Positions 7,007 to 64,000 of a stretch of DNA of 64,000 nt are shown piece by piece. Origin of the DNA: Eledone cirrhosa (lineage: Eukaryota); contig OZ024743.1 of the NCBI GenBank assembly GCA_964016885.1, forward strand, positions 160,084,001-160,148,000, given 5' to 3'. Below the pieces are notes generated by a model. The model ran no database searches. It was not told the DNA's origin and saw only the letters and a list, made by a program, of their open reading frames with translations. The translations under genes and the position numbers were made by a program. The first letter of the stretch is position 1. Each line of letters begins with the position of its first letter.

Positions 7007-7365
7007 TCAGTTCAAATTGGATGTCAATGTTTCTAACGTCTCGGTTAACCAAAGATTGCATTTGGATCTATTTCCCGCATAAGGCCTTGCTGTACTAATT
7101 AGAAACCATTTAATATTATATTTAATCTTATCTTCTTTAAGGGAGCAGCTTATTATTGCCCGAGAAGCTGTATTTTTAAGTTTGTTATCTTTAAATGAAT
7201 TAGTGTGAGCATCGTATCTAGTTTTGAATTTATTGGCAGTAACACCTATATAATTAAAGCAAGTATCACTAGTTGAAACCTCACATCTATAAATATTATT
7301 TGTTTTAAGGCATTTACCCCCAATTGGGTACTTATTAGAAATTCTGCAATTACAATTGATCCCCA
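7007..7365 (-). pseudogene. PLE GIY-YIG endonuclease fragment
   Basis: CNCR..YPIGGKCL..NNIYRCEV..NYIGVTANKFKTRY.AH.NSF..KCNLWLTE. Confidence 0.85.
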
Positions 7366-7744
7366 AAAGCAATAATTAATAATATTTCTAAAAGAATAAG
7401 TACGCTTTCGACGAATATTGATGTTTTAATCAGAATACTAATTAGAATATAATGAGGCCATACATAGATCAGGATACAAAGAAAAAATAATATATAACGT
7501 TACTGATAAAAGAAGTTTTAATAAAAATCTTCAAGGAATGGCAATAAATCTACATATGTTTTTCATAATGATAGAAATAAAAATAAAAATAAGAATGCTA
7601 TGACTAAAACTGATAATTCGTCTTAACCAACTAATTACCTTAAAAATGACAACTTTAATCTAAACTTAATTGATTAAGTAGGTAGTAGTATAGATGATAC
7701 ACTAATTAAATCGAGTAATTATAATATAAGGTTCAAATTGATAA

Positions 7745-11698: not shown

Positions 11699-11933
11699 TA
11701 TATAGAAACACACAGATACATGCGGACAACTACATATACATGAATATATCCACATATATCTTTGAATTAGTGGTGCCAACCTCAACCGATGTTGCTCTAT
11801 GAGTAACTGGGACAAAATAATCCGATTGGATTAGATTGATTCAGTATCAGAGCTATATAATACATTATGAAGAGAGAAGAAACATTAGATATAATTAATA
11901 ATAAGATATATCATACCTAAACTCCTTCTTTAC

Positions 11934-12026
11934 TCCTCGACTACGTAGTTTCGTGGCATATTATGCAAAAACACTACATCACAGAGATATAGAATTGTTG
12001 TGTGGTCTGCCGACTTATCAAGAGGA
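11934..12026 (-). ncRNA. Hammerhead ribozyme (U3-A8 core, long stem II), inverted copy
   Basis: Reverse complement of the 12136-12228 motif. Confidence 0.75.
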
Positions 12027-12135
12027 TACCTCAGCTCTGTTTCTTGACCGCTGTATCACGTGATTGACTCCCCCTCCGCCTTTCGGGATTCTATCTCGCG
12101 TCCTACGGACGTGTTTTGAAACTCTTAATGAGGTA

Positions 12136-12228
12136 TCCTCTTGATAAGTCGGCAGACCTCACAAAAATTCTATATCTCTGTGATGTAGTGTTTTTGCATA
12201 ATATGCCACGAAACTACGTAGTCGAGGA
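12136..12228 (+). ncRNA. Hammerhead ribozyme (U3-A8 core, ~60-nt stem II region)
   Basis: tcctc TTGATAA gtcggca...tgccac GAAA ctacgtag TC gagga. 5-bp stem I, palindromic stem III, GUC site. Confidence 0.8.
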
Positions 12229-12287
12229 GTATAGAAGGAGTTTAGGTATGATATATCTTATTATTAATTATATCTAATTATATCTAA

Positions 12288-12475
12288 GGGCGGTGAATTG
12301 GCAGTATCGGTAGAGGGTTGGACGCCATGCTTTCTAGCATAGTTACGTCCCTTTACAGTCTGAGTTCAAATCCCGCTGAGGTTAACTTTGCCTTTCATCC
12401 TTACGGGGTCGATAAAATAAAGTACCAGTAATGTACTGAGTAATTGTTGGCCTTGTGCCAAAAGTAGAAACAATT
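12288..12475 (+). mobile_element. tRNA-derived SINE inserted into the HHR element
   Basis: A box tggcagtatcggt and B box gagttcaaatcc. Flanking duplication taattatatctaa. Confidence 0.9.
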
Positions 12476-12936
12476 AATTATATCTAATGTTTCTTCTCTC
12501 TTCATAATGTATTATATAGCTCAGATATTGAATCAATCTAATCCATTCGGATTATTTTGTCCCAGTTACTCATAGAGCAACATAGGTTGAGGTTGGCACC
12601 GCTAATTCAAAGATATATGTGGATATATTCATGTATATCTATGTGTCCGCATGTATCTGTGTGTTTCTATATATTGTTTATAACACCCTTGGTCGAGTAA
12701 CCTTTGAAGTGTAGTGACTGCTGGAAAGATATCATTAATCATACTTCTCGCCACCTTAGCTACCTCTTCTACAGCTTTGATATAAGTACCCCCTCCGCCA
12801 ACGTGGGATTTTTTTCACGGTTATAAGAGGCTTAGCTCTGTTTCTTGACCGCTGTATCACGTGATTGACTCCCCCTCCGCCTTTCGGGATTCTACCTCGC
12901 GTCCTACAGACGTGTTTTGAATCTCTTAATGGGGTA

Positions 12937-13029
12937 TCCTATTGATAAGTCGGCAGACCTCACAAAAACGCTATATCTCTGTGGTGTAGTGTTTTTGCAT
13001 AATATGCCACGAAACTACGTAGTCGAGGA
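12937..13029 (+). ncRNA. Hammerhead ribozyme, second tandem copy
   Basis: Same motif as 12136-12228 with one stem-I mismatch. Confidence 0.7.
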
Positions 13030-13097
13030 GTAAAGAAGGAGTTTAGGTATGATATATCATATTATTAATTATATCTAATGTTTCTTCTCTCTTCATA

Positions 13098-13129
<32 letters not shown>

Positions 13130-13356
13130 CGGGATAACAAATTATTGTTATAGGTAGTCCACTTAGGTGTAGTCCAGTTATGGTACTCCGGCTAGTGGAT
13201 GATATCAACGCTTGGCTAAGTTTGACTCAACAAGGCGTTTCCATAGTGATGCTGCGAGTACGCTGTAATTCCTATGTTGTAAACACTTGGAGTAATAATA
13301 AATCAGGAAAGAAGAGTGACACGGTTTGCTATACAAAAAAGGTTTTTAATCTCATT

Positions 13357-13462
13357 GCTGACAATTGTTTCTCTGAACTGGTAGGTCTAGAGATCGCTAC
13401 TCGCTTATTTTCACGTTACTCGATCACCAATAAAAAGTTATAACCAGTCAATTCATCGGAGC
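13357..13462 (-). ncRNA. Hammerhead ribozyme variant with long stem II (left arm)
   Basis: Reverse complement of the 13869-13974 motif. Confidence 0.6.
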
Positions 13463-13868
13463 TTGTGAGAATGAAAATAATATACAGGCATGGCTACTAT
13501 ATATAGTAGTAATGGCATTCAATCAGAACAATAACAACAATATTAACAATGTTAGCAATACATTATTTAAAATAATCACAACATCAATCTAGGTGGGAAG
13601 TATAGTACATCTACGATTTTAGCGTGTAAAATTAGCTGACATGAGGCAGATGTATAAAATTGACATGTAAAAGCTGTCGTCAATGTTATACATCTGCCTC
13701 ATGTCAGCTAGTTTTACACGCTAAAATCGTAGATATACTATACTTCCCACCTAGATTGATGTGATTATTTTATATAATTTATTGCTAGCATTATTGTTAT
13801 TGTGCTGATTGAATGCCATTACTACTATATATAGTAGCCATGCCTGTTTATTCTTTTCATTCTCACAA

Positions 13869-13974
13869 GCTCCGATGAATTGACTGGTTATAACTTTGTA
13901 TTGGTGATCGAGTAACGTGAAAAAAAGCCGGTAGCGATCTCTAGATCTACCAGATCAGAGAAACAATTGTCAGC
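13869..13974 (+). ncRNA. Hammerhead ribozyme variant with ~80-nt stem II region
   Basis: gct CCGATGA a ttgactggt...accagatcag a GAAA caattg TC agc. Palindromic stem III, GUC site, U4C core change. Confidence 0.65.
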
Positions 13975-14027
13975 AATGAGATTAAAAACCTTTTTTGTAT
14001 AGCAAACCGTGTCAATCTTCTTTCCTG

Positions 14028-16543: not shown

Positions 16544-16754
16544 ATATATATAAAGAAAAAAAGATGAAATCGAAAATGCAACGAGTCTTATTTTAAAAAA
16601 AATATATATATTTATTTGGTTCCTTTACCGATTTCGCAGTTCTTCTGCTTTTCAAAAGTAGAGTTGAGATGGAGGGTCTGTGGTTTTTCTCACATCTGGT
16701 TGGTCTCTGAATGTTACTTGTTTAAATGGCAAAAAGAGGCGAATAATTATGGAA

Positions 16755-18625
16755 ATTATAATTAAGGAAGCGTACAAGGGAAGTACTGTTGTCATTATGG
16801 AGGCTGAAAAATTTAAAAATTCTATGTTCTCTCTCTTACAAAATACTAATTACTATGAAAGAGTAAAAACTACCAGCAATCAAAAACAATGACCAGATTA
16901 AACACACTGATTTATCGATACCAGGAAGACCTAACTAAAAAAGAACGCGATTATTTAACATATTTTGAATACAAAACCAGCAACCTTTACGGACTTCTGA
17001 AGATCCACAAATGTAAAATAATTAACGATGCCTGTAAACAATCCACCTCAGCCTGCGTGAACACACAATACCCTACAGACCTTAAATTAAGACCAATTAT
17101 AGCGGGCTCACAATGTGAAACAAACAGACTGAGCAACTTTATAGACATACTACTAAAACCAAATCTCAAACACATACCAAGCCTTGTAAAAGACGATCTG
17201 GACCTCTTAAACCACCTCCCCAAACATGTCAACAACGACACTATTATTGTGTCTTTCGATGTAGTGAATCTCTACACAACGATCCAACACCAATACGGAC
17301 TAGAAGCAATAGGATTCTGGCTCGAGAAATATCCCAATGAGATACCTGGGAGAATAGAAAAAAGCTTCATCACCGAGGGATTAAAATTCATCTCACAGAA
17401 CAACTTTTTTGATTTCGATGGCAGTACTTACAAGCAAATATCGGAGACTGCGATGGGTACAAAATCCGCTCCAACTTATGCCAACTTAGTCATGGCATAC
17501 TTAGAAGTCCAGATATATGAACAGTCCAAATCAAAATACGGATTGAACTTCCACAGATATTTATCAGAGAATTGGAAACGCTACTTGGATGATTGTCTCA
17601 TTCTTTGGTCCCACACACTCGACCAACTGAAGAATTTCAAAAACTTAATAAACGGCATCAATAACCACATCCAATTCACAATGGAATACAGCCAAGATCA
17701 ACTCCCATTTCTGGACATCTTAATCTTAAAAAAATACACAAATATTGAAACTGACATACACTACAAACCAACAGATTCCAAACAATACCTGCTATTCACC
17801 TCCAACCATCCAAAGCACACGAAGACGAACATTCCTTTTAATCTAGCAAGAAGAATTTGCACAATTGTCTCCAATTATGAAACGCGAAATAAAAGACTTC
17901 AAGAATTAAAGGAAATTCTACTCGAAAGAGAGTACCCACCATTACTAATAAATAATGGAATAGAAAGGGCTAAAGCAATATGCATTGATGAATTACGAAA
18001 ACAGAAACAAATTCAAGGTACGTCCAATATTCTATCATATATCTCAACACACAACCTAAGAAACGCGGAAGCTTACAACACTATTCCCAAGAACATCCCA
18101 CTACTAAAACAAAACCCGAGAATGAAAAAAGCCCTTGAAACACACAAAATAATCAAAAGCAAAAGACAACCGAATTCACTGAAAACATTACACACCAATG
18201 CCAAATTACCTACCACAAACCCACAACCAACTGTCAAAAAATGTGGTCGCTCTAATTGTGGAATCTGCACTCACCTCATTGAAGGCAACACGTATGTATA
18301 CATTTAAATCAGCACAATTTTTTACTGTAAAAAATCACTTCACTTGCTCATCAACAAATCTACTTTATGCCATTAATGTAAAGGATGCAATGAAGATTAT
18401 ATAGGACAAACTAAACTCACACTCAGAAACAGAATGACAGTTCATCGCCAACAATTACGAGATCCAACCATGAGACAGATACCACTAAGCGCACATCTAG
18501 ACATATGCGCAAGTAATAAGACACCCAAATTCCAAGTCTTCCCATTTTACCTTTGCGCTAACTATACTACAGAACAAATACGAATAAATAAGGAAAATAT
18601 AGACCAGCATTAAATATGGTTTAAT
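16755..18625 (+). pseudogene. PLE reverse transcriptase plus GIY-YIG endonuclease (main open segment 16889-18307, frameshifts on both sides)
   Basis: LYGLLKIHK, LRPII, SFDVVNLYT, AMGTKSAPTYANL, WKRYLDD, LPFLD, CGRSNCGIC, FTCSSTNLLY, YIGQT..LRNRMTVHR. Confidence 0.95.
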
Positions 18626-19072
18626 ATACATTATGTCAACACCATAACATGCTAACCATCCAAACACACACATAACACCTGCTACTTTAGAAAATAAAAA
18701 CCCTAACTAAATAAACCTTAACATACGTTTGCACTGACAATACAACAGAACAAATACGAATAAGTAAGGAAAATATGTTCATTCAATAATATTCCTACTA
18801 AAGGAATCATTTTCCTACACACACACACACACACAATATATATATATTCTCTTCATCTTAACATGCTAACCATACTCCCACACACATAACACCCATACAC
18901 ACACATAACCCCCCCCCCACACACACACACATATACCCCCCCCCCCCCACACACACACCCAACTCCCCCATTTCTACTAATAGAATCACTTTCCTACACA
19001 CATATATACACACACACAAAATATATATATTCTCTCCATCTTAACATATCCCCCCCACATACACACATAACA

Positions 19073-19125
<53 letters not shown>

Positions 19126-19136
19126 GCACACAAAGG

Positions 19137-19603
19137 GAGCGAAAATTTAATGAAAACTTGTTCACGTGACAGCCATAATTTCATTTATAACCAATCAAAT
19201 TACGTTTATTAAAAAAAAGCCTTCGTGAGACCCCTTTTTTTTAAGTAAAAAGAAATTCAAACACACACACACAACACACACACACACACAAGCACACAAA
19301 TAAACAAACGTATCTTTACTTTCTTTAATCAATAGAAAATCTGAATTCTGACACCCCAGCGAACTAACCATATTCACTGAACCAGAACAATTCTCCTATC
19401 CAATTTCCATTGACCATTATCTTTTGCTTGTCATAAAATTCTCTAAAAAGGCTACAGAATAGATTTCCTAATAAGAGCGCGAAAATTTAATGAAAACTTG
19501 TTCACGTGACAGCCATAATTTCATTTATAACCAATTAAATTACGTTTATTTTAAAAAAAGCCTTCGTGAGCCCCTTTTTTTAAAGTAAAAAGAAATTCAA
19601 ACA
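19137..19603 (+). repeat. ~125-bp direct duplication within the PLE 3' UTR
   Basis: gcgaaaatttaatgaaaacttgttcacgtgacagcc...aagaaattcaaaca occurs at ~19139-19263 and ~19479-19604. Confidence 0.85.
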
Positions 19604-19834
19604 TTCATATATGAAAAAAAACAACCTGTGACACCCCCCCCCAACCCACCCACCACCCTTGTTTGAAGAACTTTATAACGCGAACTGGCGCGAAATTTAT
19701 TATAATTATTGACCAACCAAACAAATTACTTCTCTAAACCCTGGCATTTCGAGCCACTTTTTCCATATAAAAGAAGTAACATTCAGAGACCAACCAGATG
19801 TGAGAAAAACCACAGACCCTCCATCTCAACACTA

Positions 19835-19870
19835 CTTTTGAAAAGCAGAAGAGCTGCGAAACCGGTAAAG
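19835..19870 (+). ncRNA. Minimal hammerhead ribozyme (U3-A8 core) in the PLE 3' pseudo-LTR; inverted copy at ~16623-16658
   Basis: ctt TTGAAAA GCAG aagag CTGC GAAA ccgg TA aag. Confidence 0.85.
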
Positions 19871-20008
19871 GAACCAAATAAATATATATTTTTTTTTTAA
19901 ATAAGACTCCAGTTGCATTTTCGATTTCATCTTTTTTTCTTCATACTTTCACTCGTGTAGAACACCTCGTTTATTTTTCATTTTGTAAAAAAAACCTCAC
20001 TTTCTAGT

Positions 20009-20057
<49 letters not shown>

Positions 20058-20076: not shown

Positions 20077-20136
<60 letters not shown>

Positions 20137-20342
20137 AATTGTATACGTACATACATATATGTATACAGACGTACAATAGTATGTATATACATACATGCAT
20201 GCACATATATATATATATGTGTACATATGGATTTACCGAACATTTATTATAAGGCTCGGTATGTTTGTAAACAGACAGCCCGAATTAAGCCGTACAGTGT
20301 TCGGCAACCATCGTTGCCCTTTTTTTCAACACTGACAAAGGA

Positions 20343-20385
20343 ACGATGAACTAGTTTCTAGCTTCTTAGCTGTCATCAGCAACGT
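20343..20385 (-). ncRNA. Minimal hammerhead ribozyme (family A)
   Basis: acgttg CTGATGA c AGCT aaga AGCT a GAAA ctag TT catcgt. Confidence 0.8.
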
Positions 20386-20612
20386 ATACCTTCCTGTAAA
20401 TCGATTGAACGTTTGAAAATATATACTTTCCGTATGTATATTAAGTATCAGCCGTACTAAGAGTGAGAAATGAAATTTCATTTTTTCCATTTATCGTTTT
20501 CGGTACGCTCGGCCGACTAACTTACTTGATATGCAAATTAGGCTGCTCAGTCGTTAATATGCATAAGGAAAGAATATACTTTCAAACGTTCAATCGATTG
20601 ACAGAAAGGTAT

Positions 20613-20655
20613 ACGCTGCTGATGACAGCTAAGAAGCTAGAAACTAGTTCATCGT
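20613..20655 (+). ncRNA. Minimal hammerhead ribozyme (family A)
   Basis: acgctg CTGATGA c AGCT aaga AGCT a GAAA ctag TT catcgt. Confidence 0.8.
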
Positions 20656-20847
20656 TCCGTTGTCAAACAAACTGACCATTATAATAAATGTTCGGTAAAC
20701 CCATACGTACATATATATATATGTGTGCATGTATGTATGTATATACATAGTACTGTACGTCTGTATACATATATGTATGTACGTATACATACTTATATTT
20801 AAGTATCAGCCGTACTAAGAGTGAGAAATGAAATTTCATTTTTTTCC

Positions 20848-20904
<57 letters not shown>

Positions 20905-22214: not shown

Positions 22215-24600
22215 CAAACAATATATCATCAGCCGTTGTCAAAAGCAATGAAAATTTATTCAAAACCAATAGTAAATTGAGTTCTATGACCTTATTTGGA
22301 GGTAGCTGAAGAACAAACCAATCAAATTGTTTTTTGCCATATGGTGTTAAGATGAAATATAACTCACTTTAGTTGAGATCATGACCCTTTGCAAGAAATG
22401 GTTGAATGGTGTTAAAAATAGAATTACTATAAAGAACTTATGAACAAAAGGGATTGTTATATTGATAGTGGAATGTAGATGGTGGAGTGAAGTTTAAAAA
22501 GGAATGTAAAAATTAAATGTTGAGTTGTGTTGTATGGCTACCTCCAGATAAGGTCATAGAACTCAATTTACTGTTGATTTTGAATACATTTTCATTGCTT
22601 TTGACAACGGCTGATGATATACATGTAGGTAAATATATTCTTTATTTGATATTTTGTAACTAACCCTACATAGATCAATAACGAAATATGCGTACGATGT
22701 ACCATTATCACATAGAAACGATCGTAACGCAGTGAAGTATTGAATTTCTATTTCATTGTTTTAACTTATATCATGACTCTGTTTTTCTTTTGATGCTTTA
22801 TTGTTTTCCGGGATTTATTTTAATCTACAACATTTTAACATATGGATTACATTGAGTTCTTCATGCAGACTAGACCCCACAACTAACCGTGGATATTTCT
22901 GTGCATCTTGCTCCTTCAATATATTTTTTGATAATTATCTCCACTTCTGTGATTATAATATTTAGTCGAGCTCTTCTTCTATCTAATTTCTGCATCACAA
23001 TGGAAAATAAATATTTGGGTACATTCGTTGAAGAATATTCCGATTCCACCTAAAGACGAATATCTACTCTTGCTCATACAAAAAAACAAACCAGTTTATT
23101 AGGAGAATGCGATGGAGAGCCTATCATTTTGACAACAAAATCAATACAAATGAAAAGAAGTACCGCTATGGATTCAACACATGCAAAAATCCTCCTCATA
23201 ATATTCAACTTGAAAATTTTGAGAGCGCCCTACTGAACATAATTAAAAACATAAAGTTCAGGAAACAAATCTGAATCCAAAAGGGATCAGACTCAACCCT
23301 TCTGCAACTGAAAAATTCAAACAAGGTCCATGTCCATTCTGACAAAACTGGTAACCTGTACCCTATATACATCGATAAGTATAACCAGTTCGTTTATAAA
23401 GAACTTAGAAAAAACTATAAGAAAACCAGCACCACCGCACTGACATCCTTGAACAAAATATCATGTGATATACTAAAAAAACTCCACATTGAAGATAGGA
23501 CGGAGCCTTTCACACCTAAAAGCCCGCACTTCAACCTGAAGGACCACAAATCTGACCTTAATTCGAACCCATCTATTAGACTGATATGCCCATCAAAATC
23601 TGATATCGGTAATATCAGCAAGAAAATTATTGATCGAATCATCCCGCAGATTAGAAAATTTGTAACACTTCCATTATGGGATAACACTTCCCAGGTTATT
23701 GAATGATTCACTAATATCGAGAATAAAAACTCAGCTTCATTCATACAATTCGACATCGATTCTTACTATTCTTCGATTTCTCCAATTCTCTTAACTGATC
23801 TTCGCCAGAAATAGATCGGATTTATCTACAGAGGAAATCAACATCATAACTCACGCTAGAAAAACCTTACTAAAAGAACACAGAACAAGAAACACATATA
23901 ACAACTTATTCGATATAAAGATGGGATCCATGGACTCTGCTCAAGTTACCGACCTCGTTGGACTATTTCTCCTCTATAATATTCATTCCTCTTTTGCCCA
24001 CCTCAAAGGTGGTCTTTATCGGGATGATTGTCTATTGATATCTAACAATATTACCAATTCTAATAGAGAGAAAAACAAAAAAACAAATTAGGAAATTCCT
24101 CAAGGACTATTACAACCTTAACATCACCTTTGAAAACACCTCCAAACTAGCTAACTTCCTTGACGTTACCTTAGACCTCTCTACTAATATTTATCAACCT
24201 TACCACAAACCGAAGCAGAATCTACACTATGTACATTCACGGTCTAACCACCCTGGCTCTATATTCAGAAACTTAGTATATAACATATCTCTTAGACTTT
24301 CTAAATTATCTTCCAATGAGGATATATTTTATGAAAATGCACCCTTCTACAACGAGGCCCTAACTAGAAGTGGATATAAAGAAAAAAATTCATACATCCC
24401 CAACACTACTATGGACCATACTACAAAACCTACCAAAAACTACATACACCAAAAAATACCATCGAAACAAATGCCTAATGGGATCATTCCTATCACACCA
24501 AACAACCGCAAAACCACAACAACTATTACTACACGATCTATGACCAATGTTAACAACTCACATATGACTAGCAAACATTCAACCTTTCATAATCTACCCA
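22215..24600 (+). mobile_element. Decayed Penelope-like element (5' repeat with HHR-like motif plus RT region)
   Basis: 22221-22305 is inverted relative to 22536-22621. RT motifs: SDKTGNLY, LKDHK..NPSIRLICPSKSDIG, FIQFDIDSYYSSI, MGSMDSAQVTDLVG, GLYRDD, NFLDVTLDL, PYHKP, SNHP. Confidence 0.85.
22608..22729 (+). ncRNA. Possible hammerhead with ~95-nt stem II insert
   Basis: cgg CTGATGA ... GAAA cgatcg TA acg. Stem III is a perfect palindrome, but stem I is weak. Confidence 0.45.
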
Positions 24601-24713
24601 ATAATTGTTTCTACTTTAGGCACAAGGACAGCAATTACCCAGTACATTACTGGTACTTTATTTTATCGACCCCGTAAGGATGAAAGGCAAAATTAACCTC
24701 GGCGGGATTTGAA
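24601..24713 (-). mobile_element. SINE 3' fragment
   Basis: Same family core. Confidence 0.85.
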
Positions 24714-29620: not shown

Positions 29621-30056
29621 TCTATACATACAGTATATATATATAGCTGTAGTTGTCTATGTGTGTGTGTTTGTGTATGTGTGTGTGTGTGTGTATTAAT
29701 GTTGGCAAAGTCTATACAAATCCACATTTCTACGCCAATTGACTTCAAACTGGCATTTATATATTCTTTGCGGTCTAAAGATATTAACTTCAGCCTTTAT
29801 TTTTCAAATTTCTGTTCTTAAAGGCGTTTTTCTTTCACTAAAACTTTAAGCCCTTTCTATCAGTTTAGTTCGGCAATTTTGTCTACAATGATCAAGAGAG
29901 ACAATTCTATAGTATTTTGAAAGAGTTATCACTCTTTATAGACTATATTATCCCTATTTAAACGTACATCCCTTGAAATTGATGCAGAGAGCATGAAGGA
30001 ATTTACTTGGATACTTTTAATGTTACAAAAATATTTATATATATATATATATATAT

Positions 30057-30636
30057 ATAAGTATGTATACGTACATACATATATGTATACAGACGTACAG
30101 TAGTATGTATATAGATACATACATGCAAACACATATATATGTACGTATGTGTTTAGCGAACATTTATTATAATGCTCGGTTTGTTTGTAAACAAACGGCC
30201 TAATTATTAGCCGTACAGTTTTCGAAAACCATCGTTGCCATTTCGTTCTACACTGACAAAGGAACGATGAACGAGTTTCTACCTTATTAGCTGTCATCAG
30301 CACAGTATACCTTCCTCTCAGTTGATTGTACGTTTGAAAGTATATACTTTCCTTATGCATATTAACGGCTGAGCAGCCTAAATTGCATATCGAATGAGTT
30401 AGTCGGTTGGGCGGACAGGAAGGTATACGGTGCTGATGACAGCTAATAAGGTAGAAACTAATTCATCGTTCCTTTGTCAGTGTTGAACATAATGGCAACG
30501 ATGGTTTGCCGAAAACTCTACGGCTAATAATTCAGGCTGTTTGTTTACAAACAAACCGAGCATTATAATAAATGTTCGGTAAATCCATACGTACATATAT
30601 ATATGTGTGCATGTATGTATGAATATACATACTACT
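30057..30636. mobile_element. Family-A HHR element, fold-back copy
   Basis: 30057-30415 (-) and 30416-30636 (+) arms, each containing the HHR (30264-30306 minus, 30427-30469 plus, with slight decay). Confidence 0.85.
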
Positions 30637-30739
30637 GGGTATATGTTTTGGAAAGATAGTGTTATCTCGCCTAACGCTCCGAACTGGAACCAATGGATGT
30701 TGTTCGAAGGGTGCTGATATGATACGGAGAATCGACTTG

Positions 30740-31480: not shown

Positions 31481-31890
31481 GGTAAACGGAAAAGAAAATG
31501 CTGACAAATTGTTCACAGTGAAAAATAGTTTAATTAGGAATAATTGAGAATTAGTAATAGTATTGGTTAGTATTCAGTTTTGGTTTTAAGGTTTACCGGT
31601 TCCGCATTTCTAATGCTTATCAAAAATAATTTTGAGATAGAGCGTCCGTGATGTTTGCTCTCATCAGATTAGAGCAAACATCACGGACGTTCTTTCTCAA
31701 AATTATTTTTGAAGAGCATTAGAAATGCGCAACAGGTAAAACTTAAAACCAAAACTCAATACTAACCAATACTATTACTAATTTTTACTTATTCCTAATT
31801 AAACTATTTTTCACTGTGAACAATTTGTCAGCATTTTCTTTTCCGTTTACCAATATATCATAACTTGTGTTACACCTCTATTCTTTTAAA
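31479..31890. mobile_element. Family-C fold-back element (~185-bp arms plus tail) with HHR-like motif
   Basis: 31479-31661 is the reverse complement of 31671-31854. A second copy lies at 41871-42293. Confidence 0.88.
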
Positions 31891-41874: not shown

Positions 41875-42293
41875 TAAAAGGAAAAGAAAATGCTGACAAA
41901 TTGTTCCCAGTGAAAAATAGTTTAATTAGGAATAAGTAAAAATTAGTAATAGTATTGGTTAGTATTCAGTTTTGGTTTTAAGTTTTACCGGTTGCGCACT
42001 TCTAATGCATTTCAAAATAATTTTGAGAAAGAGCGCCCGTGATGTTTGCTCTGATTAATGTTTGCTCTGATTAGAGCAAACATCACGAGCGCTCTCTCTC
42101 AAAATTATTTTTGAAAAGCATTAGAAATGCGCAACCGGTAAAACTTGAAACCAAAACTGAATACTAACCAATACTATTACTAATTTTTACTTATTCCTAA
42201 TTAAACTATTTTTCACTGGGAACAATTTGTCAGCATTTTCTTTTCCTTTTACCAATATATCATAACTCGTGTGTTACACCTCTATTCTTTTAA
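41871..42293. mobile_element. Family-C fold-back element, second copy
   Basis: Same arms and tail as 31479-31890. Confidence 0.88.
42108..42143 (+). ncRNA. Hammerhead-like motif with U3-A8 and GCAA in place of GAAA (family C)
   Basis: ttt TTGAAAA GCAT tagaa ATGC GCAA ccgg TA aaa. Confidence 0.6.
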
Positions 42294-45070: not shown

Positions 45071-45505
45071 ACTTAAATCATATTGATACATATTTGCAAG
45101 GGATTGTTAGAACTTTTACTTTTCTAAACATAATTTCATAGGTATTGCCAAGACATATTGAAATATGTTTTCCGAAATTTTGATTTATTTATTGATTAAT
45201 TTATCTATCTATTAATCAAATAACGAAACGAAATTAAATTTCGTTTCGTTTGTAACTCACTTTTGTATGACTGACGCTTAAACAATTAAGTTAAAAATGT
45301 ACATCTACATATGCATACTGAAATACTAGTGTGTATATGAATACACACACGTATACATATGTAGGTGTACCAAGTCTTTCACTGGTCGCTTTGCAGTGAG
45401 CGGCCAGCTATTCTGTATGTAAACACACAGACAAACCGGTTTTTAGAGTCATACTAGTTTTTCGGGGGAACACCTTCCCCCTATTCTCCAGAAAGCCAGA
45501 CAAGG

Positions 45506-45550
45506 AATATTGAACTAGTTTCGTTGTTGTTACAACTCATCAGCAATATT
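45506..45550 (-). ncRNA. Minimal hammerhead ribozyme on an extended stem I (45483-45578)
   Basis: aatattg CTGATGA GTTG taacaa CAAC GAAA ctag TT caatatt. Outer stem attctccagaaag/ctttctggagaat. Confidence 0.85.
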
Positions 45551-45804
45551 TACCTATCTACCGGCCTTTCTGGAGAATTGTAAAAGCACATATCGTTATA
45601 TGCTTTTTCTATGAAAATTAGTAGTGGGCAGACTAATTTATCTATTAATCATTATGTTGGTAGTGTTAATGCACACATCTGCATGTGATATATACAGAGA
45701 CAATAGATGCACATTATTCATAGATATATATGTATGTATATCATATGTACATATACACATATACACAGTATATACGTATAACACCCACATATACCCAAAA
45801 TATA

Positions 45805-46507: not shown

Positions 46508-46658
46508 TTATATCAGATCTATACATTACACAGCACAAATTACAGATTAGACATACACTGCAGATCAAATCGGGTCGTTTGTTTATAAACGAAACGAACA
46601 TTAGTATTAATGTTCGTTACAACCCATACGCACATATGCATACGTATATATGTGTGTG

Positions 46659-46745
<87 letters not shown>

Positions 46746-46849
46746 GTGTGTATGTGTGTGTCTATGTATGTGTGTGTGTACGTGTGCATACTTACATTTA
46801 CGTATGAGCTGTGCTAGGGAGAGAAATGAGGCTACTCAGCGAGTGTGTA

Positions 46850-47088
46850 CTAAAGAAAATACTATATATTTTCAACCATTCAACAGACTGTCACAGGTAT
46901 ACAGTCCTGATGAAGGGAAATGACCCAGAAATATGCTGATTGTTCCTCAAAGCCAGTGTTGAATAAACGGGTGACGATCGGTCACAGGCACGACACACCT
47001 TCAAATCGAGCCGTTTGTTTACAAGCAAATCGAACATTATTATTACTGTTCGATATAGCTCATACATACATATGTATATGCATATTTG

Positions 47089-47095
<7 letters not shown>
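46850..47095 (+). mobile_element. Diverged family-A-like element with degenerate HHR (46901-46943)
   Basis: aggtat acagtc CTGATGA a GGG aaatga CCC a GAAA tatg ct gattgt tcct. Downstream gtttgtttacaa..cattattat..tgttcg as in family A. Confidence 0.7.
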
Positions 47096-47542: not shown

Positions 47543-47790
47543 AGACAGGGGGGAAGAAAAAATGGCTTCACTTGTGCTTTCAACAAATTTATTTTCTTCA
47601 CAAAATCCAAAAAGAATTTTTCTTAAAAAAATTATTTTATAAATTAAGTTGTTGGTTTAAAATAATTTTTTTAAGAAAAATTCTTTTGGGATTTTGTGAA
47701 GAAAATAAATTTGTTGAAAGCACAAGTGAAGCCATTTTTTCTTCCCCCCTGTATTAATATACCTAACTGTACCAAGGATTACACACATTT

Positions 47791-48932: not shown

Positions 48933-48933
<1 letters not shown>

Positions 48934-49356
48934 CGTTTATCGTTTTCGGTGCACCCGGCCGATTAACCCACTCGATATGCAAATTGGGCTACTCCACCGT
49001 TAATATGCATAAGGTAAGTATATACGTTCAACAATCTGGCAGGAAGATATACGTTGCTGACGATAGCTAATAAGCTTGAAACTAGTACAGCGTTCCTTTG
49101 TCAGTGTTGAACAAATGAGCAACGATGGTTGCTAGACACTACGGGTTAATTCGGGATGTTTGTTTACAAACACACCGAGCATTATGATAAATGTTCGGTG
49201 AATCCATACGTACATATATATATGTGTGCATGTATGTATATATATATACATACTACTATACGTCTGTATACATATATATATGTACGTGTACATACTTATA
49301 TTTAAGTAACAGTCGTACTAAGAGTGGGAAATGAAATTTCGTTTCATTTTTTCCGT
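48933..49356 (+). mobile_element. Family-A ~420-bp monomer bounded by (TA)n
   Basis: Runs from tttatcgttttcggt to gaaatgaaatttcgtttcattttttccg, the same ends that are joined head-to-tail at ~20490. Confidence 0.85.
49051..49093 (+). ncRNA. Canonical minimal hammerhead ribozyme (family A)
   Basis: acgttg CTGACGA t AGCT aata AGCT t GAAA ctag TA cagcgt. 6-bp stem I, GUA site. Confidence 0.88.
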
Positions 49357-55846: not shown

Positions 55847-56239
55847 TAGATATACTGCCGTGTAGATTTCACCTTCAACGCTTGACCCGCTCTACCTACT
55901 CCCCTATCGTTCTGCAGGCAAGTTCAGCCACCCCCACCCCGCACCAACTGACATGATAGACTTTTCTGTGTCTGCTACAAATTTTGACCAATCCTCTTGA
56001 CAACTACAATTTTCCCATATAAAGAAGTACCCCTTCAAAATTTCGGCTGTTTACCAGACTAAAAAAACTCTTACTTTGGTCCAGAAATAGCCGTCGAAAC
56101 GTCTTGAGCTCTGCCGTCGGGGTCATACTTTCTCCTATTATCCATTATACCCCCCCCCCTAAGTATTGAGTACTCTGGTCCATCTGGTTCCTTACCACAA
56201 CTCCTTCGTTATATATATTTATATATATATAGTTTTGTT

Positions 56240-56870: not shown

Positions 56871-56965
56871 AGTATAGGTTCTCAACGGGGGGGGGGGGGG
56901 GCGTTTCGTTGCTCGAGGGAGGCGTTATGCTGTGAGGTGGCGTTAGGGGGCGTTGTTATGCAGTA

Positions 56966-57138
56966 GAATAAATGTTCGGTGAATCCATACGTACATATAT
57001 GTATGTGCGCATGTATGTATATATATATACATACTACTGTACGTCTGTATAGATATATGTATGTAGGTGTACATACTTATATTTAAGTAACAGCCGTACT
57101 AAGAGTAGGAAATGAAATTTCGTTTCATTTTTTCCGTT
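56966..57138 (+). mobile_element. Family-A 3' fragment
   Basis: Matches 49187-49356. Confidence 0.8.
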
Positions 57139-57157
57139 TATATATATATATATATAA

Positions 57158-58274: not shown

Positions 58275-58394
<120 letters not shown>

Positions 58395-58551
58395 TGGAAT
58401 AAATGCTCTGAAATAGCGATATATATGTGAATATAGACATAGAATATTCGAAAATATTCTGTATGTTTATAATAAACATTTTGAAGACCTAATCGCTATA
58501 GAATAGAATACGTCACGTATTACAATTAGATTCTCGATAAAAGCAAGGGAA

Positions 58552-58594
58552 GTAATCTACGCGTTTCATTCTTGTTAGAAATCATCAGGACTAC
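58552..58594 (-). ncRNA. Hammerhead ribozyme (310-bp unit, inverted block)
   Basis: Reverse complement of the 59144-59186 motif. Confidence 0.9.
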
Positions 58595-59143
58595 ATATCC
58601 AGTGCTTTTATCGAGAATGACACAGCTAGAGACTTATAGAATACTTAGCTGTGTACAGGAACTGGTTTGAAAGAGCGGTTGCCGGTCCGGCAGAAATTAG
58701 AAATTGGAATAAATGCTCTGAAATAGCGATATATATGTGAATATAGACATAGAATATTCGAAAATATTCTGTATGTTTATAATAAACATTTTGAAGACCT
58801 AATCGCTATAGAATAGAATACGTCACGTATTACAATTAGATTCTCGATAAAAGCAAGGGAAGTAATCTACGCGTTTCATTCTTGCTTTTATCGAGAATCA
58901 AATTGTAATACGTGACGTATTCTATTCTATAGCGATTAGGTCTTCAAAATGTTTATTATAAACATACAGAATATTTTCGAATATTCTATGTCTATATTCA
59001 CATATATATCGCTATTTCAGAGCATTTATTCCAATTTCTAATTTCTGCCGGACCGGCAACCGCTCTTTCAAACCAGTTCCTGTACACAGCTAAGTATTCT
59101 ATAAGTCTCTAGCTGTGTCATTCTCGATAAAAGCACTGGATAT

Positions 59144-59186
59144 GTAGTCCTGATGATTTCTAACAAGAATGAAACGCGTAGATTAC
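59144..59186 (+). ncRNA. Hammerhead ribozyme, copy 1
   Basis: gtagtc CTGATGA t TTCT aaca AGAA t GAAA cgcg TA gattac. Predicted cleavage after 59180. Confidence 0.92.
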
Positions 59187-59453
59187 TTCCCTTGCTTTTA
59201 TCGAGAATCTAATTGTAATACGTGACGTATTCTATTCTATAGCGATTAGGTCTTCAAAATGTTTATTATAAACATACAGAATATTTTCGAATATTCTATG
59301 TCTATATTCACATATATATCGCTATTTCAGAGCATTTATTCCAATTTCTAATTTCTGCCGGACCGGCAACCGCTCTTTCAAACCAGTTCCTGTACACAGC
59401 TAAGTATTCTATAAGTCTCTAGCTGTGTCATTCTCGATAAAAGCACTGGATAT

Positions 59454-59496
59454 GTAGTCCTGATGATTTCTAACAAGAATGAAACGCGTAGATTAC
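59454..59496 (+). ncRNA. Hammerhead ribozyme, copy 2
   Basis: Identical motif at +310. Confidence 0.92.
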
Positions 59497-59763
59497 TTCC
59501 CTTGCTTTTATCGAGAATCTAATTGTAATACGTGACGTATTCTATTCTATAGCGATTAGGTCTTCAAAATGTTTATTATAAACATACAGAATATTTTCGA
59601 ATATTCTATGTCTATATTCACATATATATCGCTATTTCAGAGCATTTATTCCAATTTCTAATTTCTGCCGGACCGGCAACCGCTCTTTCAAACCAGTTCC
59701 TGTACACAGCTAAGTATTCTATAAGTCTCTAGCTGTGTCATTCTCGATAAAAGCACTGGATAT

Positions 59764-59806
59764 GTAGTCCTGATGATTTCTAACAAGAATGAAACGCGTA
59801 GATTAC
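59764..59806 (+). ncRNA. Hammerhead ribozyme, copy 3
   Basis: Identical motif at +620. Confidence 0.92.
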
Positions 59807-60073
59807 TTCCCTTGCTTTTATCGAGAATCTAATTGTAATACGTGACGTATTCTATTCTATAGCGATTAGGTCTTCAAAATGTTTATTATAAACATACAGA
59901 ATATTTTCGAATATTCTATGTCTATATTCACATATATATCGCTATTTCAGAGCATTTATTCCAATTTCTAATTTCTGCCGGACCGGCAACCGCTCTTTCA
60001 AACCAGTTCCTGTACACAGCTAAGTATTCTATAAGTCTCTAGCTGTGTCATTCTCGATAAAAGCACTGGATAT

Positions 60074-60116
60074 GTAGTCCTGATGATTTCTAACAAGAAT
60101 GAAACGCGTAGATTAC
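60074..60116 (+). ncRNA. Hammerhead ribozyme, copy 4
   Basis: Identical motif at +930. Confidence 0.92.
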
Positions 60117-60245
60117 TTCCCTTGCTTTTATCGAGAATCTAATTGTAATACGTGACGTATTCTATTCTATAGCGATTAGGTCTTCAAAATGTTTATTATA
60201 AACATACAGAATATTTTCGAATATTCTATGTCTATATTCATATAT

Positions 60246-60320
<75 letters not shown>

Positions 60321-60358: not shown

Positions 60359-62289
60359 CAGTGGCAATAAAAAACTGTAGACAAAATTCTTTCTGTACCC
60401 AAACCAATATATATATACATAGATAGATACACAGACACACACAAACACACATAGCCACGCACACACGCACACACACACACATACACACACACATACACAC
60501 ACACAAACTTGTGTGTGTGTGTGTGTATGTGTGTGTGCGTATGTGCGTGCGTGTCTATGTGTGTTTGTGTGTGTCTGTGTATCTATCTATGTATATATAT
60601 ATATATAAGGGATACAAATACTACTTTCTCACTGTCCCCAAGCATCATTCGTTGCTAAGTATTTTATTTTACTACGAGGTATTTTATTTTGCAAGGTACT
60701 ATTTTTCCCCTGAGTTTGTGATTTCAGAGAAAGGTAAGAAATTCTTCATATTTTACATCTTTTGTATTTTGACTTTACAGTTTGAATTGTAGAATTGTTT
60801 ATCCAATCAAAATATTACAATAGCTAACAGTGAAATATAGAATTTAAAAAAAAAAGCGTTTTCGACTGAAATCAAGTCTTTGAGAACATTCACGTCTATT
60901 TTTCAAAAATATATAATTTGAAATAGTTTGCTTTTGTTTTGGATTGAAACTTCTTTTGTATTTAATTCGTACGGGTATTTCTTAAAGATCATTCTAACAT
61001 AACTTGATTTGGCCCATTACGTGCACTGCGGCATTCATATTTCTCAACTTATTATAACTAAGTCTGTACAAGAAGCTTCACTTATCAAAAATGTTCTAGG
61101 TTGCGTGAATGAATTGCGGAAACTATATAGTACATCAGGAAAATTTAAGCAAGCGTATTTATCACAACATGATGAAGAAAATGAAGTATCGTCACCACGC
61201 TCCTTAACACCTGTGTGCCCTACTCGATGGCTAACACGACTTTCTGCAGTCAAAGCCCTTCTTGACAATTATTCAGATGTCCCTATTTCTTTACAAGAGG
61301 CAACAAATGAGTTTGGCACCAACATTGCATCCAGAGCTAATGTTATTCTTACGTGTCACTCTCCGGGCCAATGTGTGCTTGGATTGCACGTTGTAGTTCA
61401 ATTACTTCAATTCCTTGAAGGATTGAACAAATATTTTCAAAGTACCACCTTCAATCTAGGTAGCATGTTGCATAGTGTCAAACTGGTACAGGGGGAGCTA
61501 AAAATATCTACGCAGTGAAGAAAAATTTCAGATGTTCAATACAGCAGAAAAAATTATTTATCAACTCGATATCTCTCCTTTGGAGCTACCCAGGCAATGA
61601 AAAGTTCCTAAAAGATACCAGGAATGGAAATGTTTGTGCTGAAGTGATCATACAGTATCCAGAGCTTGATGAATTTTCTTTAAGGAACGAAATATTTTTT
61701 TATAGAAATCATCATAGTGGATCATCTCTCGAGGATCATCGTAAAATATTCGGTGAAATGTAACCAGAAGTCCGTCGCTTGTTTCTAAATGATGTGCGAT
61801 TGTTCAGGCTACTTTTAATGTTTCCAACCAGTTCTTGTGAAGCTGAAAGATCTTTTAGCGCTCTGCAGAGACTCAAAACTTGGTTGCGATCGACCATGAT
61901 TTAGCAAAGGTTGAATCATATTCTAATATGAGACGTTCATAAAGATGTTTTGAAAAAGATTAGTTGTGAAGAAGTTGCTAAATTATTTATTGACAGCAAT
62001 GATGCGAGATATGATACATTTGGAAAGTTCTAAAAGACAATAAATTTACTTTATATGATTTTTATTCAAAGTCTATGTTTTATTTTTTTGTTTATTTGAT
62101 ATAATAAATACTTTTTAAGCTTATTTTTTTTTTATATCTGAACTTCATTTGAATATATAAAATTTAATTAGCGTAAAGAAATGTTTACTTATGTGATAGG
62201 GTTCAGGAAAGACACCAAAAGTAATACTAAAATGCTCCAACAAATGTTGGTTTGTCCCCCTCACATGTTTAAGGCAAACGAGGCCCCTG
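60359..62289 (+). mobile_element. Defective hAT DNA transposon with 8-bp TSD
   Basis: gaaaagag at 60351-60358 and 62290-62297. Ends cagtggc / gcccctg. Confidence 0.75.
61009..62033 (+). pseudogene. hAT transposase C-terminal part (ZMYM1-like, dimerisation domain)
   Basis: YVHC..H, CPTRWLTR, PTSSCEAERSFSALQRLKTWLRSTM..RLN. Contains stops and frameshifts. Confidence 0.88.
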
Positions 62290-63027
62290 GAAAAGAGCAA
62301 CATTATTTACTGACCCGTTCATCACCGTGATCGGCTTGACCTCGATACTTCAGCTCATTCTTACTAACATTCGGTTTGCTTGACCCCATCTTATCTTCAT
62401 TGCATTTCCACATCATTTATTCTATAACTAGGTTGTTGCTATTCCTATATAAACTGACTGTTTATACTACGATCAAGTCTTGTTATAGCCTTGGGTTTAA
62501 GGAAGTGCTTTTGTAGTCTTCAACAGTCATCAATTATAATTGCAGCACCATTACAAGAATATCACAGTGATGCATTAAGTTAAGGGCGATAATTTGCGTA
62601 ACTCTGACTAATAAGTAATGTCTTAACTTAGTATTATCGCGTCTTATCACTACGTGCTTAATTGATGAATTCCATTTCAAAATAGCACATTACTAGTCAT
62701 TCTTGCATTAAGTTCTCTTGAACTCGTTGCCTCGTTGATCCTTTATTCAGTCTGCCACCTTAATTCCCTCAAGCTAAGTTATTACTATTCCTACATGAAA
62801 GACTGGTTAATCGTCATATATAACTTGTCTCGACTTGGTTAATTAATGACAGTATTTGTCTTTTTCATTGCAGTTTTGTTTATTACAAAGTGTTATTCCA
62901 GAACATTACTTGAAACTTTATCATACTGGAACAGGACTCATTATAGTAAGTTCCTTATACATAATTGTATAGGCTTATATAGGCAAATCTTTGCGTAACT
63001 TTACCAGACATATTCGCTAAACAGAAA

Positions 63028-64000
63028 ATGGCCTCAGCAATGAAGAAAAAATGCAGGCAGTACAGCGTTGATTACTTACGGTTCGGATTCATCCCATCGC
63101 CGTCGAACCACCTGTCACCCATGTGTTTAATTTGCAGGGAGTCCTTTTCGAATGAGGCGATGAAGCCATCGCGTTTGAGTAGACACCTGAAGGTGAGGCA
63201 CCCCGATAAGAGATATAAAGATTTAGCATACTTTCAGTCTCTTAGGGACCAATTCCAGAAAACAACACTAATTTATTCTGCCTTTTCAAAAGTTGAAGCT
63301 TCAAATGTTGATGGACTTGTCGCATCTTACAATATTGCCAACATAATCGCAAGCCCCTGTCATCTCAGAAGTTCTTTCAACAGTACTACGTCAGAACCCG
63401 TTAAAGACCTTGAAATGTATTCCGTTGAGTAACGACTCAATAAAGAGACGCATGGACGAAATGGCGGAAAATGTTGAACAACAATTATGCAACATCTTGA
63501 AATCGACACAATTTGCTTTGCAACTTGATGAAAGCACACTTTCCGGGAATCAGTCCTTACTACTGGGATACGTGCGATTTTTCCACCAAAACGAAATGCA
63601 CGAGGAGCTTCTCTTCACTCTAAATCTAGCCACAGATACTAAAGGTGCCACGATCTTTGAATCTGTCAAGGGATACCTCGAAGAAAACGAGATACCTCTT
63701 AACAATATTGTATCATATGCTACGGACGGCGCAAGAGCAATGGTCGGCCAATATAAGGGTTTCGTCTCTATTCTGAAGAGGGAAAATCCATCTGTATTTG
63801 CTGTTCATTGTGTCATTCATCGACAACACTTGGCTGCGAAGAAACTCAGCGAGCCGCTGAGCAAGTCTTTGCAGGTAGCCATTGATGTCATCAATTATAT
63901 CAAACGCCATGCCCTCAATGAACGAATTTTCCGGCAACTGTGCGGAGATAATGACGAAGAATTCGTCAAGTTGCTCCTTCAAACTGAAGTGAGGTGGCTT
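63028..64000 (+). pseudogene. hAT Buster/Charlie-type transposase (BED finger plus DDE region), one frameshift near 63355, runs off the window
   Basis: RQYSVDYLRFGF, PMCLIC..SNEAMKPSRL..HL..RHP, PLSNDSIKRRMDEMA, FALQLDEST, ATDGA, HCVIHRQ, TEVRWL. Confidence 0.93.

What the first reader, a model, noticed from the sequence alone, without database searches (positions are those of the whole stretch)
48933..49356. Family A: ~420-bp non-autonomous HHR element present five times, with a head-to-tail junction
Copies lie at 20140-20852 (inverted plus tandem), 30057-30636 (fold-back), 46850-47095 (diverged), 48933-49356 (monomer) and 56966-57138 (fragment). At ~20490 the 3' end (..ttttttccat) runs directly into the 5' end (ttatcgttttcgg), showing the unit is closed on itself with no room for an ORF. 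This argues for a second retrozyme-like family rather than a solo PLE end.
Basis: partly seen in the sequence, partly recalled or inferred. Interest (0 to 1): 0.75.

Follow-up and report, generated by a model that had tools for sequence, protein, structure and literature searches.

The report
Penelope-spread hammerhead retrozyme lineage
This 420-base non-coding repeat with a predicted self-cutting RNA motif sits in thousands of places in an animal genome, and its mirror-image insertions nearly always pair one arm ending at one fixed site with one ending at a second site 60 bases on, which likely records a Penelope-type jumping-gene enzyme copying it from both sides of a DNA break.

Summary
The unit 48936-49355 is closed on itself: 3,584 of 4,236 exact unit starts in the genome are directly preceded by the unit end. 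It has no ORF over 53 aa and carries a type I hammerhead whose stems covary across subfamilies (13 of 26 pairs). No copy examined led into a Penelope ORF. The five window copies fall into three subfamilies of one lineage of ORF-less units (410-490 nt, 65-85% alike, collinear round the circle); a sixth relative at 45218-45660 was missed. Insertions have Penelope anatomy: (TA)n targets, partial tandems, head-to-head arms and two fixed 3' ends (unit 364-366 and 425). In an independent set anchored on end II, the opposite arm ended at site I in 29 of 34 two-armed insertions and at site II in none. Verdict: a metazoan non-LTR retrozyme, likely moved in trans by a Penelope-like RT. Not shown: expression, cleavage, circular RNA, or which Penelope family is the partner. 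Long arrays can be amplified locally, so they do not prove rolling-circle copying. The scan reported this family before on other DNA of this genome (e1-8665316).

The parts
48934..49356 (+). One full 420-nt unit (subfamily A1) between (TA)n runs
   Evidence: closed unit
49047..49097 (+). Type I hammerhead: stem I, core CUGACGA at 49057, 3-bp stem II, GAAA, short palindromic stem III (ACUAGU, 49081-49086), predicted cut after A49087
48977..48984 (+). ATGCAAAT octamer, best-conserved 9-mer across four subfamilies; role untested
   Evidence: host U2 promoters lack it
49196..49291 (+). Long TA/TG-rich hairpin
   Evidence: predicted
49293..49308 (+). Small hairpin whose loop holds fixed 3' end I (unit 364-366, 49299-49301)
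49328..49356 (+). Terminal hairpin; fixed 3' end II lies just behind it (unit 421-425)
20131..20444 (-). Inverted arm of an older-subfamily two-armed insertion, ending at site I in (TA)n; hammerhead core at 20379
20437..20853 (+). Forward arm with end-to-start junction at 20489|20490, hammerhead core at 20619, ~63-nt internal deletion, ending at site II in (TA)n
30055..30637 (.). Older-subfamily fold-back: inverted arm ending at site I, forward arm cut short at unit 323
46555..47095 (+). Decayed copy of the distant subfamily A2 (410-427-nt closed unit); core at 46907 damaged
56960..57141 (+). 5'-truncated A1 fragment (unit 244-425) without hammerhead, ending at site II
45218..45660 (-).

Best explanation
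It is a protein-free, head-to-tail-closed hammerhead repeat that is likely copied through RNA by the reverse transcriptase and endonuclease of a Penelope-like element acting in trans. Shown: closed unit, no ORF, covarying hammerhead, (TA)n targets, 5' truncation, head-to-head arms, and two fixed 3' ends used one per arm. Inferred: loci with more than one unit are transcribed; the weak palindromic stem III lets two hammerheads cut as a pair; monomers may be ligated into circles. A PLE protein, probably a dimer, would bind the two-hairpin region, nick both strands of a (TA)n run, and prime one DNA end at site I and the other at site II. Both cDNAs would run 5'-ward across the ribozyme site and be joined head to head. 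The template is more likely a circle (about 55%) than an uncut multimer (about 35%). The partner is unidentified; Hydra-type elements are the best guess.
For: Closure: 3,584 of 4,236 starts. Longest ATG ORF on the circle 53 aa. Hammerhead: 94% of cells paired, 13 of 26 pairs and all 3 stem II pairs changed on both sides, 0 of 500 shuffles as high, slid controls 27-40%. Circle folds at z -7.1 (monomer) and -9.0 (majority), 0 of 60 shuffles each. Ends: 3,204 exact end-II-into-TA matches. I+II pairing in 17 of 19 two-armed insertions with both ends classable (p 3e-4), and 29 I against 0 II among 34 in an independent set. 63 of 86 arm segments cross the cut site, with no pile-up of 5' ends there (4 vs 2.3 expected; 1 vs 2.6). 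43 of 98 segments exceed one unit. 9 rare variants are shared by both arms of one insertion. The 467/468 relative shows the same two-end pattern. A Poseidon PLE protein cuts and extends both strands and starts at two internal RNA sites that define the tail (PMC11167929). Hydra-type coding fragments lie in 22 of 100 sampled stretches, Neptune-type in 7, Poseidon-type in 3; Hydra elements have canonical hammerheads and (TA)n targets (PMC8557442).
Against: No autonomous element with this end was found among 60 endonuclease-anchored loci and 20 longer stretches. No RNA data. No A>G excess that would mark an edited RNA template (29 vs 20 single-unit, 1 vs 1 fixed; 29 vs 23). A 10-unit array alternates two variant sets and its opposite arm matches neither, pointing to local DNA amplification (L290). 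Two II+II insertions exist (L008, L016). The isolated ribozyme region folds no better than shuffles (z -1.1), and the reverse strand of the circle also folds well (z -5.2). In Xenopus 8 of 9 retrozyme dimers did not cleave in vitro. Covariation counts related sequences, not independent events.
Confidence: 0.8

Rival explanations
1. Same PLE-driven element, but the template is an uncut linear multimer read from tandem loci. The hammerhead is dispensable for insertion, and long arrays are rebuilt by local DNA duplication.
For: For the anole Poseidon element, ribozyme mutants insert normally and unprocessed RNA is the main substrate. L290, L019 and L303 show nested or alternating variants typical of local duplication. 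Arms crossing the cut site fit this equally well.
Against: The ribozyme has been kept with compensatory changes over subfamilies 65-85% alike. Circles are the main RNA form for coral, mussel and axolotl retrozymes.
Confidence: 0.35
2. The copies are truncated ends (pseudo-LTRs) of a rare autonomous Penelope-like element whose partial tandems give the end-to-start junction.
For: Partial tandems, inverted 5' copies and tails are standard for autonomous PLEs. The genome search scores only top candidates, so a rare coding parent could be missed.
Against: Arrays of 2-10 full units with nothing between them. Four subfamilies are collinear round the whole circle. Copies lying near a PLE ORF sit behind that element's own end and a (TA)n run, or abut older unrelated DNA.
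Confidence: 0.08
3. A satellite or MITE-like repeat spread at the DNA level, with fold-backs from replication errors at (TA)n runs.
For: Local amplification does occur (L290). The unit contains a microsatellite-like hairpin.
Against: Fixed 3' ends with scattered 5' ends, the I+II asymmetry, dispersal over many contigs and a strand-specific conserved ribozyme are not expected from DNA-level copying.
Confidence: 0.05

Closest known systems
Metazoan non-LTR retrozymes (Cervera and de la Pena 2020, PMC7229834: passages and parts 2-4 of 6 read; Li, Clavereau and Pollet 2026, 10.64898/2026.07.22.740005: parts 1-3 of 5 read)
   Same: Type I hammerhead in each short low-GC tandem unit, no ORF, thousands of copies, self-paired predicted circle, PLEs in the same genome. 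Stem III is one pair plus a palindromic tetraloop as in axolotl HHR_Amex1; stem II has a basal U-U mismatch as in HHR_Amex2.
   Different: Unit slightly longer (420 vs ~170-400 nt). The parts read describe no two-armed insertions, fixed paired ends or (TA)n targets for retrozymes. Expression, cleavage and circles are untested here. No matching PLE terminal repeat was found, unlike 21 PLE matches for Xenopus families.
Penelope-like elements: insertion anatomy, non-autonomous Chlamys (MRC1) and Hydra clade (Craig et al. 2021, PMC8557442: passages and section 11 read)
   Same: Partial tandems, inverted 5'-truncated copy, a tail on one side only, (TA)n targets, non-autonomous head-to-tail copies.
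   Different: No RT or endonuclease; tail about 60 nt rather than 30-40; Chlamys mostly lack canonical hammerheads and their non-autonomous forms match an autonomous 3' end.
Poseidon PAc of Anolis (Frangieh et al. 2024, PMC11167929: parts 1-2 of 4 read)
   Same: Two internal start sites that define a tail, a start in a stem-loop, AT-rich target, both strands extended.
   Different: PAc is autonomous and showed no difference in start site between strands in vitro; here genomic copies use one site per arm.
Newt satellite 2 (seen only as cited in PMC7229834 and PMC2220036; primary paper not held)
   Same: Tandem hammerhead unit with weak stem III; reported internal snRNA-type promoter, which the conserved octamer here recalls.
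   Different: No promoter match to this host's U2 upstream sequence was found.

Membership tests
Metazoan non-LTR retrozyme | Type I hammerhead in every tandem unit | tested here: met
   core and stems; 37,114 exact motif matches over the lineage
Metazoan non-LTR retrozyme | Short head-to-tail units, dimers to multimers, GC under 50% | tested here: met
   420 nt, GC 0.38; arrays to 10 units; junction counts
Metazoan non-LTR retrozyme | No protein coding, no LTR structure | tested here: met
   longest ATG ORF 53 aa; ends map to internal sites, not LTRs; PBS/PPT not searched
Metazoan non-LTR retrozyme | Highly self-paired predicted circle with free hammerhead | tested here: met
   z -7.1 and -9.0, stems I and II formed; reverse strand also folds (z -5.2)
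Metazoan non-LTR retrozyme | Self-cleavage in vitro | not testable with these tools
   needs a bench assay
Metazoan non-LTR retrozyme | Expression as linear and circular monomer RNA | not testable with these tools
   no RNA holder listed
Non-autonomous Penelope-like element | Partial tandem, inverted 5'-truncated copy, one-sided tail | tested here: met
Non-autonomous Penelope-like element | Microsatellite/AT-rich target | tested here: met
   outer ends run into (TA)n
Non-autonomous Penelope-like element | Sequence shared with the 3' end of an autonomous family | tested here: inconclusive
   none among 80 PLE-anchored loci; only part of the genome's PLE families were seen
Autonomous PLE pseudo-LTR (solo end) | Copies extend into an RT/GIY-YIG ORF | tested here: not met
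   none in 27 + 17 + 59 insertions
snRNA-promoter-driven hammerhead satellite (newt satellite 2 type) | Internal snRNA-type promoter | tested here: inconclusive
   octamer conserved (role of the octamer recalled), but absent from 4 of 4 host U2 upstream regions, and best alignments fall in TA-rich DNA

The most novel reading that the evidence does not exclude
A long-lived lineage of RNA circles that evolves with no coding parent, like a SINE lineage, and records the missing step of Penelope integration: one RT dimer on one circular RNA primes the two ends of a DNA break at two different hairpin-marked sites, which explains both the inverted repeat and the one-sided tail of Penelope insertions.
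Probability: 0.4. Interest if true: 0.72.

Novelty: new member of a known kind. Interest (0 to 1): 0.52.

Why it matters
How animal retrozymes spread has been proposed (circles copied by a PLE enzyme) but not shown in the papers read, and the origin of the inverted repeat and one-sided tail of Penelope insertions is described there as open. This family gives a 420-nt defined substrate with two exactly mapped start sites and a near-strict one-site-per-arm rule, so both questions can be tested with one RNA and one purified protein. It also shows that such units can persist as a diverging lineage of tens of thousands of loci. The element class itself is known, so the value lies in the mechanism, not the category.

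Tried and rejected
(1) Partner search: 30 GIY-YIG loci, 30 Hydra-type loci and 20 stretches of 9-9.5 kb around GIY-YIG hits showed Neptune-, Hydra- and Poseidon-like families (clade names from motifs and PMC8557442, no tree built), each with its own end; none matched this unit. Naiad-type elements were not searched. (2) Apparent chimeric insertions pairing this arm with another element (L268, L278, L286, L291, L314, L316, L318) were not accepted: the L268 neighbour is at most 94% alike to its best relatives while this arm is ~100% to majority; the L314 flank is a LINE and the L316 flank an old broken Hydra copy; the other four were not dated. (3) RNA-editing scars: none. The G>A excess comes partly from selecting hits by likeness to the window copy. 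(4) The count of 54 Hydra fragments was inflated by a common short repeat matching the bait's tail and was replaced by the recount. (5) No RNA holder listed; the contigs laid are from runs of unrecorded kind and say nothing on expression. (6) snRNA promoter: no support from U2 upstream DNA. (7) Long arrays as proof of rolling circle: rejected (L290). (8) Rfam miRNA hits are TA-repeat artefacts. (9) Literature: 'retrozyme' + 'twin priming' gave 0 papers; 'retrozyme' + 'octopus', 'octopus' + 'hammerhead ribozyme' and 'cephalopod' + 'Penelope' + 'ribozyme' listed no paper on such a family by title or abstract start; the host group in these searches was a guess. Supplements were not read and may list such repeats.

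Full report
Observation. The monomer 48934-49356 is one full unit between (TA)n runs. It holds a type I hammerhead: stem I, core CUGACGA at 49057, a 3-bp stem II with a basal U-U mismatch, GAAA, a palindromic stem III (ACUAGU) and a GUA triplet ending at 49087. The copies at 20131 and 30055 are 80-85% alike and two-armed, the 56960 copy is a 3' fragment without ribozyme, and the 46800 copy is about 70% alike. The junction at 20489|20490 is real.

Genome context. The window lies in a 3.0-Gb genome. A search with the first 270 nt gave 1,109 candidates, of which 40 were scored at 96-100%. The hammerhead pattern has 37,114 exact matches (control 0); it covers several subfamilies but not A2. In 100 evenly spaced 10-kb stretches there were 17 loci of the lineage, about 51,000 genome-wide (30,000-82,000).

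The unit is closed. Of 4,236 exact unit starts, 3,584 are directly preceded by the unit end; the shortfall is about what mutation in six extra bases and truncation would give (inference). Arrays reach 5-10 units with nothing between them. The longest ATG ORF on the circle is 53 aa. No copy ran into a PLE ORF among 27 top-hit insertions, 17 sampled loci and 59 end-anchored insertions. Seven of 62 segments lay within 2 kb behind a Neptune-like ORF, in four loci. In three of them (window, L055, L102) the repeat sits behind that element's own end and a (TA)n run; in L230 it follows unrelated DNA and a (TA)n run.

One lineage. Units of 410-427 (A2), 420 (A1), 467/468 and 490 nt align round the whole circle at 65-85% identity (z 8-36 over shuffles). 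The 310-nt family in the window is at most distantly related (z 4-6). Over 23 copies, 94% of hammerhead-region cells pair, 13 of 26 pairs change on both sides, and stem II is rewritten in all three pairs; related copies inflate such counts. The stem III loop stays palindromic (CUAG in A1, CAUG in A2), as in axolotl ribozymes that cut as dimers. The circle folds at z -7 to -9 with stems I and II formed; the reverse strand reaches -5.2.

Insertion anatomy. The 3' ends fall at two sites, unit 364-366 (loop of a small hairpin) and 425 (just behind a terminal hairpin), and run into (TA)n; 3,204 exact end-II-into-TA matches exist. Among two-armed insertions with both ends classable, 17 of 19 paired site I with site II, 2 were II+II and none I+I (p 3e-4). 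For an independent test I took the first 60 listed end-II sites on one contig. Two were duplicates of one insertion and one could not be anchored. Of the remaining 58, 24 were scored one-armed and 34 two-armed; the opposite arm ended at site I in 29, elsewhere in 5 and at site II in none. The 467/468 relative has the same two-end pattern. The 5' ends are scattered, with no pile-up at the ribozyme cut (4 of 86 vs 2.3 expected; 1 of 98 vs 2.6) and a cluster at unit 403-411 in the terminal hairpin (8 of 98). 63 of 86 arm segments cross the cut site (7 of the 86 are pieces of one 490-nt array), so the template was not a cut linear monomer. Nine rare variants are shared by both arms of one insertion, against 262 confined to one unit.

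Mechanism. Partial tandems, an inverted truncated copy, a one-sided tail and (TA)n targets are PLE hallmarks (PMC8557442). The only purified PLE protein cuts and extends both strands, starts at two internal RNA sites that define the tail, and is predicted to be a dimer (PMC11167929). I infer that a PLE protein acting in trans primes the two ends of a break at sites I and II, copies 5'-ward across the ribozyme site, and the two cDNAs are joined head to head. The one-site-per-arm rule goes beyond that paper, which saw no strand difference in vitro. Whether the template is a circle or an uncut multimer is open. Against over-reading: a 10-unit array alternates two variant sets that its opposite arm does not match, so arrays can grow in place (L290); there is no A>G excess; and there are no RNA data.

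Partner. Neptune-, Hydra- and Poseidon-like families were seen, each with its own end and none matching this unit. Hydra-type coding fragments are the commonest (22 of 100 stretches, against 7 and 3), and that clade has canonical hammerheads and (TA)n targets, so it is the best guess and no more. Apparent chimeras with other elements were explained by older neighbours where I could date or identify them.

Known and new. The element fits metazoan non-LTR retrozymes (PMC7229834) on every feature testable here. A 2026 preprint already argues that these are non-autonomous PLE derivatives and says their mobilisation mechanism remains to be worked out. My searches found no paper on this family or on paired two-site arms in retrozymes; supplements were not read. 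Earlier unchecked notes of this scan describe the same family and sister families in this genome with the same two-armed reading. I had noted the two ends before reading them and tested the pairing afterwards.

Verdict. A real, high-copy new member of a known kind, useful mainly as a substrate for testing Penelope integration. Interest 0.52.

Noticed in passing
window 45218-45660 (-); L241-L260: Very young 467/468-nt homologous subfamily (99-100% between copies) in two-armed arrays with the same two-end pattern; some insertions carry private variants in every unit of both arms (L250, L257). A listed array on C1 near 5.74 Mb has about 30 units.
   Followed up: partly
window 58388-60248: 310-nt hammerhead array with an inverted arm and palindromic CGCG stem III loop; at most distantly related to this lineage.
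   Followed up: partly
window 16553-20010: Neptune-like PLE (RT ORF 16859-18307, GIY-YIG remnant) with inverted terminal copy and a ~70-nt one-sided tail; its hammerhead-like core is degenerate (UUUUGA), as in other Neptune-like families here. The family A copy at 20131 sits in the (TA)n behind it.
   Followed up: partly
window 23032-24677 (+), 7010-7375 (-), near 55868 (-): Broken Hydra-type PLE fragments (RWR and DKT motifs, CxC before GIY-YIG); the clade gave 47,564 search candidates in this genome.
   Followed up: partly
L290 (G000:C1:49583612-49589512): Ten-unit array with strict ABAB alternation of variants: a higher-order dimer repeat arising inside a retrozyme insertion.
   Followed up: partly
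window 48977-48984 and 49018-49025: Octamer ATGCAAAT and an ATATA box about 43 nt downstream are kept in all four subfamilies, with length changes placed after the box; may be an internal promoter.
   Followed up: partly
unit 403-411 (window 49338-49346): Cluster of 5' truncation points in the terminal hairpin, possibly an RT pause or a protein-bound site.
   Followed up: no
window 21001(-), 14172(-), 27037(+), 51686(+), 52182(-), 56431(-): At least five further hammerhead-bearing repeat families in the window, some with oversized stem II.
   Followed up: no
window 11700-13096, 13307-14024, 31481-31851, 41876-42287, 47545-47752: Other fold-back repeats; 31481 and 41876 share a short stretch with the Neptune-like end at 19797-19869.
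   Followed up: no
L291, L318, L281, L304 right flanks: Different PLE-type elements often sit tail to tail around one shared (TA)n run, showing repeated reuse of the same target.
   Followed up: no
window 61003-63999: DNA-transposon-like coding fragments (hAT-like by recall, not searched).
   Followed up: no
run X6, records 25 and 26: Low-depth contigs under another organism label cover both ends of the unit in one record; could be a relative or carry-over.
   Followed up: no
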